From sequence record MW822007.1: DNA of 64,000 bases, one strand, 5' to 3'. The translations under genes and the position numbers were made by a program. The notes beneath the pieces were generated by a model. That model did no database searches. It was not told the DNA's origin and worked only from the letters and a program-made list of their open reading frames with translations. Below, piece by piece: positions 8,005 to 9,344 of this stretch (position 1 is its first letter; every line of letters begins with the position of its first letter). Source of the DNA: Escherichia phage BF15.

Positions 8005-8784
8005 TTAATTAAAAATATATACTTCATCAGTTCCATTCTTTTCTTTGGAATGATATATGTTAAAGACGTATTTTTTATTAAGATGCTTAACATTATATTT
8101 TTTAGACCATTCTTTAAGAAGAGTGTTTTCCTTTCCGTGATGCTCTAAAACATTCGACAGTCCAAATTTTATTCCTCTATCATTTAAAGAATCTAAAAGA
8201 TTTAAAAGGTCTTTTTCTTCTTCTTCTGACCAAAATTTATTATAATCAGCAACTGTTATAAGATATGGAGGGTCCACATATACAAAATCGCCGTCTAGAA
8301 TTTTGACATCTTTAAAATGCAATGAACTAAAGATTATTTTATCACAATTTTGTTTAAAGTGATTAAAGCGTTTTTCACTATTTTTGTTTATAGTTCTTTT
8401 TCCAAATGGAGTAGTAAAATTTCCTTTATCGTTTATACGAATCATATTACTAAACCCGTGAAAATGAAGAACATAAAGTAAAAGAGGATCTCTAGTTTTA
8501 TTATAATCTTCACGTAATTTCAAAAACTCTTCTTTTGATGTTTTTGATAGTTTGTATTGCTTTATTACTTTTAAAACGTCATCCCATGATACATTAATAA
8601 GACGCTTATACATTTCAATAATTGGTTCTTGAATATCATTGGCCAATACAGGACCATTGACGTTCAAAGACACTGATAAACCTCCACAAAATAAATCCAC
8701 GAATCTGTCATATTTTGGAAAGTGAGGCTTAAGTTCAGGCAATAATGATTGTTTATTACCCGTATACGCGATAGCTCCTAGCAT
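8005..8784 (-). CDS. dam: DNA adenine methyltransferase Dam (GATC, N6-A)
   Basis: 259 aa; DPPY catalytic motif; matches T4 Dam as recalled. Confidence 0.9.
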
Positions 8785-9344
8785 TATATTCTCTCATTTA
8801 TTGCAGCAAAAAACGAATTATATAATTCTTCATCATATGTATTTGATAGTAATACTAACACGTTTTGTGATTTAGCATATTCATTAAACCTTGCTTGGAT
8901 GGTTGGATTATCAGTAAATGATTCTCTTTTTGTCCATTTATTACGTGGATAATATCCGCATGGCAAAAAATCTAATATCATCAATGACACAGGGTTTTCA
9001 GTTTTTGTGTATTCTTTTAATTTCTCTTTATCTTCTAAATATATTCCAACCGAATCAATAGCTGTACCTCCACCAACTTGGTGTTTAATTTCAATTATAT
9101 GCTTTTTACCGTTGCGAGAAATAACAATATCAAATCTTCTAGTACGCTTCTTAGTTATAAAATTAGAGCAAAACAAATTATTTGATTTTTCAGTATCATC
9201 GGTTAAAACCATTTTTTCTTGATAACTAACTGAACAATCAGTGAAATATTCTTTTACTTTATTAAGTATGAAATTTTCAACTACGGCAGATATTTTATAT
9301 GAATCTCCGTTTAAAGCCATTTCATGCACAATTTTATTAATCAT
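8784..9344 (-). CDS. putative PD-(D/E)xK-type nuclease (restriction-endonuclease-like)
   Basis: 186 aa; motif D72-x12-E85-I-K87; ATG with GAGGA SD; own early promoter; stop overlaps dam ATG (TAATG). Confidence 0.5.

What the first reader, a model, noticed from the sequence alone, without database searches (positions are those of the whole stretch)
8784..9344. PD-(D/E)xK-type nuclease gene translationally coupled to dam
A 186 aa ORF sits between gene 61 and dam. It has its own early promoter and a GAGGA Shine-Dalgarno, and its TAA stop shares a base with the dam ATG (TAATG), so it is co-transcribed and coupled with the GATC methyltransferase. It carries a D72...E85-I-K87 arrangement ([17 protein letters not shown]), the hallmark of PD-(D/E)xK nucleases such as type II restriction enzymes and MutH/Sau3AI-family GATC endonucleases. 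I do not recall any gene between dam and 61 in T4. A nuclease-methylase operon in a phage could be a restriction-modification-like module, a weapon against competitor or host DNA, or an inter-phage exclusion system.
Basis: partly seen in the sequence, partly recalled or inferred. Interest (0 to 1): 0.75.

Follow-up and report, generated by a model that had tools for sequence, protein, structure and literature searches.

The report
Restriction-enzyme-like partner gene of phage Dam
Many relatives of phage T4, including the classic phage T2, carry a small unstudied gene for a restriction-enzyme-like DNA cutter fused head-to-tail to the phage's GATC methylase; T4 deleted most of it, which may explain where T4's methylase of unknown role came from.

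The parts
8784..9344 (-). ORF X, 186 aa: predicted PD-(D/E)xK endonuclease with a type IIP restriction-enzyme-like fold; candidate catalytic residues E23, D72, E85, K87
8005..8784 (-). dam, GATC N6-adenine methyltransferase, 259 aa; its ATG overlaps the X stop codon (TAATG)
   Evidence: Pfam PF02086 6.5e-51 and TIGR00571 1.4e-69. 98% identical to T4 Dam.
9352..9356 (-). Shine-Dalgarno GAGGA, 7 nt upstream of the X ATG
   Evidence: Read directly from the sequence.
9370..9398 (-). Promoter-like site TTTACT-17 nt-TATTAT with an extended -10 TG; candidate early promoter of the X-dam unit
   Evidence: Consensus scan, not above shuffled background. It lies inside the cassette that is absent from empty-site phages and was removed by the T4 deletion.
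9450..9469 (-). Terminator-like hairpin plus T-run downstream of gene 61, just upstream of the cassette; would separate the gene 61 transcript from X-dam
   Evidence: 2 terminator-like sites against 0.4 expected. Conserved in T4 and ime09.
8005..9423 (-). The whole accessory cassette (~1419 bp: promoter + X + dam) inserted between the small opposite-strand ORF and the gene 56 promoter
   Evidence: Comparison with the empty site in phage ime09. Coverage classes among 720 records.
8869..9407 (-). Segment deleted in the T4 lineage (~539 bp: promoter, SD and codons 1-158 of X), bounded by ATC microhomology
   Evidence: T4 sequence against the window. The listed dam-only records share the same junction, query position 474.

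Best explanation
ORF X is the endonuclease half of a compact, mobile, type II restriction-modification-like cassette (own promoter, then X, then Dam) carried by T4-like phages. Shown: X has a restriction-enzyme-type PD-(D/E)xK fold with a conserved active-site set; it is under strong purifying selection; it is co-inherited with, and usually overlaps, a Dam-type GATC methylase gene in every lineage found. Inferred: X is transcribed early together with dam and translationally coupled to it; it acts, probably as a homodimer like MunI, on GATC sites lacking N6-methyladenine (DpnII-like specificity); Dam shields DNA made in the infected cell. Likely substrates are therefore GATC sites that are not Dam-methylated and not blocked by glucosyl-hmC. 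Examples are DNA of co-infecting phages or other incoming DNA, and possibly under-glucosylated DNA of dam-less T-even rivals. The cassette also behaves as a selfish unit: the nuclease gene is not seen without the methylase gene, whereas T4 shows the reverse. T4's dam is the orphan left after a ~540-bp deletion removed the promoter and 85% of X.
Against: No biochemical data exist for any family member. The DpnII similarity is below Pfam's curated cut-off (16.8 against 23 bits), the hhalign probability is only 29%, and X lacks the ~120-150 N-terminal residues of DpnII, so GATC specificity is inferred mainly from the partner methylase. Host E. coli DNA is already Dam-methylated and the phage's own DNA carries glucosyl-hmC, so neither obvious DNA pool should be a substrate and the selective benefit is unclear. 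A co-expressed Dam would also methylate any rival DNA. 'Never X without dam' rests on few independent loss events, because all the dam-only genomes listed trace to one deletion. T2's allele has a frameshifted C-terminus and has lost the overlap with dam, so the best-studied carrier may hold a weakened copy. GATC depletion is equally strong in a dam-less relative, so it does not point to X specifically.
Confidence: 0.5

Rival explanations
1. X is a nuclease aimed at cytosine-containing (host or competitor) DNA whose activity either requires Dam methylation (DpnI-like logic) or ignores it. Dam's role would be to create or complete the substrate, and the phage's own DNA would be spared by glucosyl-hmC rather than by methylation.
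For: The nuclease fold and the conserved coupling to Dam fit this equally well. It would give X an abundant substrate, the Dam-methylated host chromosome, in line with the T-even habit of degrading host DNA. Published digests show that a GATC-reading enzyme (DpnI) cuts hmC T4gt DNA completely and is blocked only by glucosylation (PMC7653180 supplement).
Confidence: 0.15
2. X is a PD-(D/E)xK nuclease with a non-restriction job. It could be a homing-type endonuclease that spreads the X-dam cassette into empty sites of co-infecting relatives, or a repair or structure-specific nuclease that uses GATC methylation as a strand or age mark.
For: The cassette is an optional insertion with clean boundaries. 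The same 61/56 intergenic site holds a homing endonuclease gene in other Tequatroviruses. The cassette occurs at three different genomic positions in T4-like phages. CARF nucleases, McrC and Bax1 are also good structural matches.
Against: The best and most numerous fold matches are orthodox type IIP restriction enzymes. X belongs to none of the families that the annotated T-even seg and mob homing endonucleases belong to (from general knowledge, not tested here). A GATC near the insertion point does not track with presence or absence of the cassette, since T2 has both. No MutH-like signal was found. Homing does not explain why a methylase always travels with X.
Confidence: 0.15
3. X is a catalytically dead or decaying relic of a restriction enzyme, retained as a DNA-binding regulator of dam, as a carrier of dam's expression signals, or simply not yet lost.
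For: T4 lost it without evident harm. T2 carries a C-terminal frameshift and G29 an internal one. The family is tiny.
Against: Every candidate catalytic residue is invariant across lineages as far apart as 29% identity. dN/dS is 0.02-0.07, as low as for dam. At least 148 of 183 genomes that carry this dam keep X and dam contiguous.
Confidence: 0.1

Closest known systems
MunI and the EcoRI-like class of type IIP restriction endonucleases (PD-(D/E)xK)
   Different: Only 12% sequence identity and no detectable sequence homology (PDB sequence searches empty). The recognition sequence of X is unknown. X is encoded by a virulent hmC-containing phage, not a bacterium.
DpnII/MboI family (Pfam PF04556), the GATC-specific, m6A-blocked endonuclease of the DpnII system, which also uses a Dam-family methylase (DpnM)
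   Same: The only family repeatedly picked up by sequence. The aligned core matches X's E23, RFDIVI (D72), IIEIK (E85) and GGGTAID to DpnII's E152, RFDFVI (D201), LIEVN (E214) and GSGSKLN. Both are partnered with a D12-class GATC methylase.
   Different: All scores are below the curated threshold. X is about 100 aa shorter and lacks the DpnII N-terminal region. X has a canonical ExK where DpnII has ExN. hhalign probability is only 29%.
Restriction-modification systems of chlorella viruses (for example the GATC-specific CviAI system; from general knowledge, not tested here)
   Same: A lytic virus carrying its own endonuclease-methylase pair, with viral DNA protected by methylation.
   Different: Those enzymes degrade unmethylated host DNA. 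Here the enterobacterial host is already Dam-methylated and the phage DNA is additionally hypermodified, so the target must be different.
Orphan (solitary) phage DNA methyltransferases, including T4 Dam itself
   Same: T4 Dam is 98% identical to the Dam of this cassette and sits at the same locus.
   Different: In this window and in most dam-carrying relatives, Dam is not solitary. The T4 arrangement is a derived state produced by a ~540-bp deletion inside the partner gene.

Membership tests
PD-(D/E)xK nuclease superfamily | alpha-beta-beta-beta-alpha-beta core fold | tested here: met
PD-(D/E)xK nuclease superfamily | Acidic residue on core strand 2 and (D/E)xK on core strand 3, conserved in the family | tested here: met
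   D72 lies in strand 67-77 and E85-I-K87 in strand 80-88. All are invariant in 9 sequences at 29-63% identity, as is E23 in helix 1.
PD-(D/E)xK nuclease superfamily | Metal-dependent phosphodiester cleavage | not testable with these tools
   Requires purified protein.
Type II restriction-modification system | Endonuclease gene adjacent to and co-inherited with a DNA methyltransferase gene | tested here: met
   The two genes are adjacent or overlapping in the window, MX01, KPV15, L004, L005-L008, L009 and L010, in three genomic contexts. 148 of 183 dam-carrying records have both genes, and no listed record has X alone.
Type II restriction-modification system | Partner methyltransferase is an active, sequence-specific enzyme | tested here: met
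   98% identical to T4 Dam, the characterised GATC N6-adenine methylase (T4 record annotation; PMC4471564).
Type II restriction-modification system | Endonuclease cuts the methylase's recognition site and is blocked by its methylation | not testable with these tools
   Only indirect hints: weak DpnII similarity.
DpnII/MboI family (PF04556) | Score at or above Pfam's gathering threshold | tested here: not met
   16.8 bits against a cut-off of 23. 4 of 9 family members hit, best E 8.3e-5.
DpnII/MboI family (PF04556) | Full-length architecture (~280 aa, including the N-terminal region) | tested here: not met
   X residues 28-113 match profile positions 152-235 of 278. X has no counterpart to the first ~120-150 residues.
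DpnII/MboI family (PF04556) | Homology of the catalytic core by profile-profile comparison | tested here: inconclusive
   hhalign E 5.8e-4 but probability 29%. The catalytic E/D/E columns align. Reciprocal HMM ranking is specific against window-ORF decoys.
DpnI-like methylation-dependent GATC endonucleases | Catalytic domain plus a winged-helix m6A-reader domain | tested here: not met
   Single-domain model. The C-terminal part is helix 147-160, strand 163-167 and helix 172-185. DpnI is not among the listed fold matches.
Phage homing endonucleases | Cleavage of the cassette-free allele near the insertion site, with biased inheritance | not testable with these tools
   The locus is an insertion hot spot, but a nearby GATC does not track with cassette presence.

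The most novel reading that the evidence does not exclude
X and Dam form a working restriction-modification system that operates on T-even-type DNA during mixed infections. X would cut unmethylated GATC sites in rival T-even genomes. About two thirds of the Tequatrovirus records sampled lack this dam at the locus, and, from general knowledge not tested here, host Dam is thought not to methylate hmC DNA and T2-type DNA is incompletely glucosylated. Dam-only phages such as T4 would then be immune descendants that kept the antidote and dropped the weapon. This would assign a function to T-even Dam methylation, whose role is still described as unknown (PMC4471564). It could also contribute to GATC being the most depleted tetranucleotide in these genomes.
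Probability: 0.2. Interest if true: 0.85.

Novelty: new member of a known kind. Interest (0 to 1): 0.6.

Why it matters
T4 Dam is one of the best-studied DNA methyltransferases, yet its biological role in T-even phages is still described as unknown (PMC4471564). This analysis shows that in most phages carrying that methylase it is not solitary. It is the second gene of a two-gene cassette whose first gene encodes a conserved, selected, restriction-enzyme-like nuclease, and T4's solitary dam arose by a deletion that is still visible. That turns an old question into simple experiments, using T2-like phages and cloned genes. It would also add a complete restriction-modification-like module to the accessory gene pool of virulent, DNA-hypermodifying phages, where such modules are not expected because both host and phage DNA seem already protected. 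Finally, the protein founds a previously unnamed endonuclease family (phrog_8706, 'unknown function') that general sequence searches do not connect to any known enzyme.

Tried and rejected
- Sequence searches of the PDB with the single protein and with the family profile found nothing.
- NCBIfam gave only noise.
- A profile search of 1.84 billion representative proteins and two word-indexed searches of 5.8 billion proteins found only about a dozen family members and no bacterial relatives. The hope of finding X inside a chromosomal R-M system failed.
- The AlphaFold DB fold library was unavailable, so X could not be compared with predicted DpnII-family structures.
- MutH/Sau3AI kinship was rejected, as was a DpnI-like architecture.
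- A dam promoter inside X's 3' end was rejected as an ancestral feature. T4's annotated 'potential promoter P(E)17.40' straddles the deletion junction and is a by-product of the deletion.
- The idea that a GATC at the start of gene 56 marks cassette-free genomes as a homing target was rejected, because T2 has both the site and the cassette.
- GATC depletion as evidence for X activity was set aside, because a dam-less relative is equally depleted.
- Six literature searches found no paper on this ORF. Only one GenBank record (phage Shinka) labels it 'putative restriction endonuclease'.

Full report
**1. Observation**

The window is from a T-even (Tequatrovirus) phage. On the minus strand the gene order is 41, dmd, 61.4, sp, 61.2, 61.1, 61 (primase, 9632..10660), ORF X (8784..9344), dam (8005..8784), then 56 (dCTPase, 7426..7959).

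- **ORF and overlap.** ORF X is 186 aa. Its TAA stop shares one base with the dam ATG (TAATG).
- **Ribosome-binding site.** GAGGA lies 7 nt before the X ATG.
- **Promoter.** A promoter-like TTTACT-17-TATTAT site with an extended -10 TG lies at 9398..9370. A terminator-like hairpin (9469..9450) follows gene 61. Promoter-like sites are no more frequent here than in shuffled sequence (11 against 11.9), so the promoter is plausible but not demonstrated.
- **Correction.** The finding did not say the ORF is on the minus strand. It also omitted a 66-aa ORF on the opposite strand (9435..9635) that lies between gene 61 and X.

**2. What the protein is**

- **Sequence libraries.** Pfam, NCBIfam, PHROGs and PADLOC assign no function. 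X belongs to phrog_8706, 'unknown function'. PDB sequence searches are empty.
- **Structure model.** An AlphaFold2 model built on a 7-sequence alignment is reasonably confident (pLDDT 79, pTM 0.79).
- **Foldseek against the PDB.** All significant hits are PD-(D/E)xK nucleases. The best global match is the type IIP enzyme MunI (TM 0.59/0.56).
- **Active site.** D72 sits in strand 67-77, E85-x-K87 in strand 80-88, and E23 in the first long helix. In a 9-sequence alignment reaching 29% identity, E23, D72, E85, K87 and an adjoining H-Q-x-x-x-G-T-A-I-D-S motif are invariant.
- **Selection.** Among Tequatrovirus alleles, dN/dS is 0.02-0.07, as low as for dam.

X is therefore a selected protein with an intact nuclease active-site signature.

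**3. Linkage to Dam**

The downstream gene is a D12-class methylase, 98% identical to T4 Dam. The family of X is very small. A profile search of 1.84 billion representative proteins gave 11 hits, and two searches of 5.8 billion proteins gave 10-11 hits each. Every member whose neighbourhood could be read lies on a contig with T4-like genes or next to a Dam gene.

In every lineage whose context could be read, X directly precedes, and usually overlaps, a Dam gene whose product starts M-x-GAI-x-YTGNK:

| Lineage | Identity of X to the window | Context |
|---|---|---|
| Dhakavirus MX01 | 64% | Same locus as the window, 1-nt overlap with dam |
| Metagenomic L005-L008 | 55-57% | Downstream of primase |
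| Metagenomic L004 | 49% | Overlaps dam |
| Jiaodavirus KPV15 | 41-43% | After rIIA-rIIB-denB |
| Metagenomic L009 | 32% | Overlaps dam |
| Metagenomic L010 | 29% | Immediately upstream of rIIA |

The divergence of X and of Dam from the window ranks almost identically across these lineages, with X evolving faster. The pair therefore moves and evolves as a unit in at least three genomic contexts.

**4. Cassette structure and population states**

Comparison with the empty site in phage ime09 shows that about 1419 bp (window 8005..~9423) is an insertion. It holds only the promoter region, X and dam, and sits between the small opposite-strand ORF and the gene 56 promoter.

Of 502 phage records with this primase allele:

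- 183 carry this dam.
- 148 carry X and dam contiguously.
- The listed dam-only records (T4, RB55, ELT1 and others) share one deletion junction.
- About 320 have neither gene.
- A few have a homing endonuclease gene at the site instead.
- No listed record has X without dam.

The T4 deletion removes about 539 bp (window ~8869-9407: promoter, SD and codons 1-158) between ATC microhomologies. It leaves a 21-codon remnant that is 95% identical to X.

T2 and T4 share a 1-nt deletion in a T-run near the 3' end of X, so the T4 remnant derives from a T2-like allele. T2's protein ends ...NSFLLQ, and its stop lies 13 nt before the dam ATG. G29 has a 1-nt deletion in an A-run that splits X, which could be real or a sequencing error.

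**5. Specificity**

Nothing here shows what X cuts. The only recurrent sequence signal is to the DpnII/MboI family, the GATC enzymes that are blocked by m6A.

- **Pfam.** PF04556 is hit by 4 of 9 members (best E 8.3e-5), always below the curated cut-off.
- **PADLOC.** A type II REase model is hit by 3 of 9 members (best 5e-6).
- **Profile-profile test.** I retrieved real DpnII-family proteins using a remembered DpnII sequence as bait. The bait is 99% identical to database protein P0018. Another hit, P0089, is named DpnII of S. pneumoniae by NCBI. I aligned 14 of the retrieved proteins. hhalign against the X family gives E 5.8e-4 but only 29% probability.
- **Aligned columns.** hhalign aligns X's E23, RFDIVI (D72), IIEIK (E85) and GGGTAID with DpnII's invariant E152, RFDFVI (D201), LIEVN (E214) and GSGSKLN.
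- **Controls.** A DpnII HMM ranks X first among 373 window ORF segments (E 0.003). An X-family HMM ranks all 14 DpnII proteins above all but one of the window-ORF decoys.

The similarity is therefore weak but specific. X is not a member of PF04556 by Pfam's criteria, and it lacks the N-terminal ~120-150 residues of DpnII. No MutH/Sau3AI or DpnI-like signal was seen.

**6. Mechanism**

Shown:
- A restriction-enzyme-type nuclease fold.
- A conserved catalytic signature.
- Purifying selection.
- Obligate linkage to a GATC methylase.
- An accessory cassette with its own upstream promoter-like site.

Inferred:
- Early co-transcription and translational coupling with dam.
- Cleavage of GATC lacking m6A, with Dam as the protecting partner.
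- Targets that are neither Dam-methylated nor glucosylated.

The puzzle is that the enterobacterial host is Dam-positive and the phage's own DNA carries glucosyl-hmC. The natural substrate must therefore be something else: co-infecting DNA, or rival T-even DNA. Published digests show that a GATC-reading enzyme (DpnI) cuts hmC T4gt DNA completely and is blocked only by glucosylation (PMC7653180 supplement). So hmC alone need not protect.

Three rivals remain open:
- A methyl-dependent or methyl-indifferent nuclease aimed at cytosine DNA.
- A homing-type or repair nuclease.
- An inactive relic.

The relic reading is disfavoured by the conservation and selection data.

**7. Comparison with what is known, and novelty**

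By fold, X is closest to MunI and the EcoRI class. By sequence it is closest, weakly, to DpnII. By biology it resembles the endonuclease-methylase pairs of chlorella viruses (general knowledge, not tested here). It is not a demonstrated member of any named endonuclease family.

Six literature searches found no paper about this ORF. One GenBank record calls it 'putative restriction endonuclease' and nearly all the others say 'hypothetical protein'. A 2015 paper states that the role of T4 Dam methylation is unknown (PMC4471564).

I class this as a new member of a known kind: a type II restriction-modification-like module with a new endonuclease family. Two points are of real interest. It sits in virulent hmC phages, including T2. 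It also reinterprets T4 dam as an orphan produced by a deletion that can still be seen.

**8. Verdict**

- Interest is 0.6.
- The most novel reading that the evidence does not exclude is an inter-T-even restriction-modification arms race, with T4 as an immune descendant. I give it probability 0.2 and interest 0.85 if true.

Noticed in passing
window 9435..9635 (+): A 66-aa hydrophobic ORF on the opposite strand to all its neighbours. It has a strong AAGGAGG ribosome-binding site and belongs to phrog_2024 (unknown function; RB69ORF029w-like). Its end overlaps the gene 61 stop by 4 nt, convergently. It is conserved in T2, ime09, MX01 and also in T4, where the reference record AF158101 does not annotate it. 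The terminator-like hairpin for gene 61 lies inside its 5' coding region.
   Followed up: partly
whole window (65 GATC sites): GATC is the most under-represented of all 256 tetranucleotides (65 observed against 199 expected from a second-order model; O/E 0.33, z -9.5). The next lowest 4-bp palindrome is TCGA at 0.68. GATC is similarly depleted in KPV15, MX01, L005 and in the dam-less phage ime09, so the depletion is lineage-wide and not tied to cassette carriage. GATC counterselection in enterobacteriophages is an old observation (Deschavanne and Radman 1991, cited in PMC4471564).
   Followed up: partly
whole window: CTTA is the second most depleted tetranucleotide (222 observed against 396 expected; O/E 0.56, z -8.7), while its reverse complement is not among the ten lowest. 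This is a strand-asymmetric bias that I did not explain.
   Followed up: no
window ~7960..9430 (intergenic site between gene 61 and gene 56): This site is an insertion hot spot in Tequatrovirus. It is empty in most genomes, holds the X-dam cassette in about 148, holds dam only in the T4 lineage, and holds an annotated homing endonuclease gene in phages such as GRNsp7 and fPS-2.
   Followed up: partly
L002 (T2) 2945..3085; L001 (T4) 2500..2612; window 8784..8810: T2 and T4 share a 1-nt deletion in a T-run plus two SNPs near the 3' end of X. T2's protein therefore has a different, shorter C-terminus and no longer overlaps dam, and T4's remnant descends from a T2-like allele. The T2 copy may not be fully functional, which matters when choosing a phage for experiments.
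   Followed up: yes
L018 (X01416) 214..242 = T4 upstream of dam: The 1984 annotation of a 'potential early promoter P(E)17.40' for T4 dam straddles the deletion junction. Its -35 comes from upstream of the lost X promoter region and its -10 from the X remnant. If it is used, it was created by the deletion.
   Followed up: partly
window 4291..4935 (-): This ORF segment was the second-best, non-significant hit of the DpnII-family HMM among window ORFs (E 0.028, 8 bits). It is probably noise.
   Followed up: no
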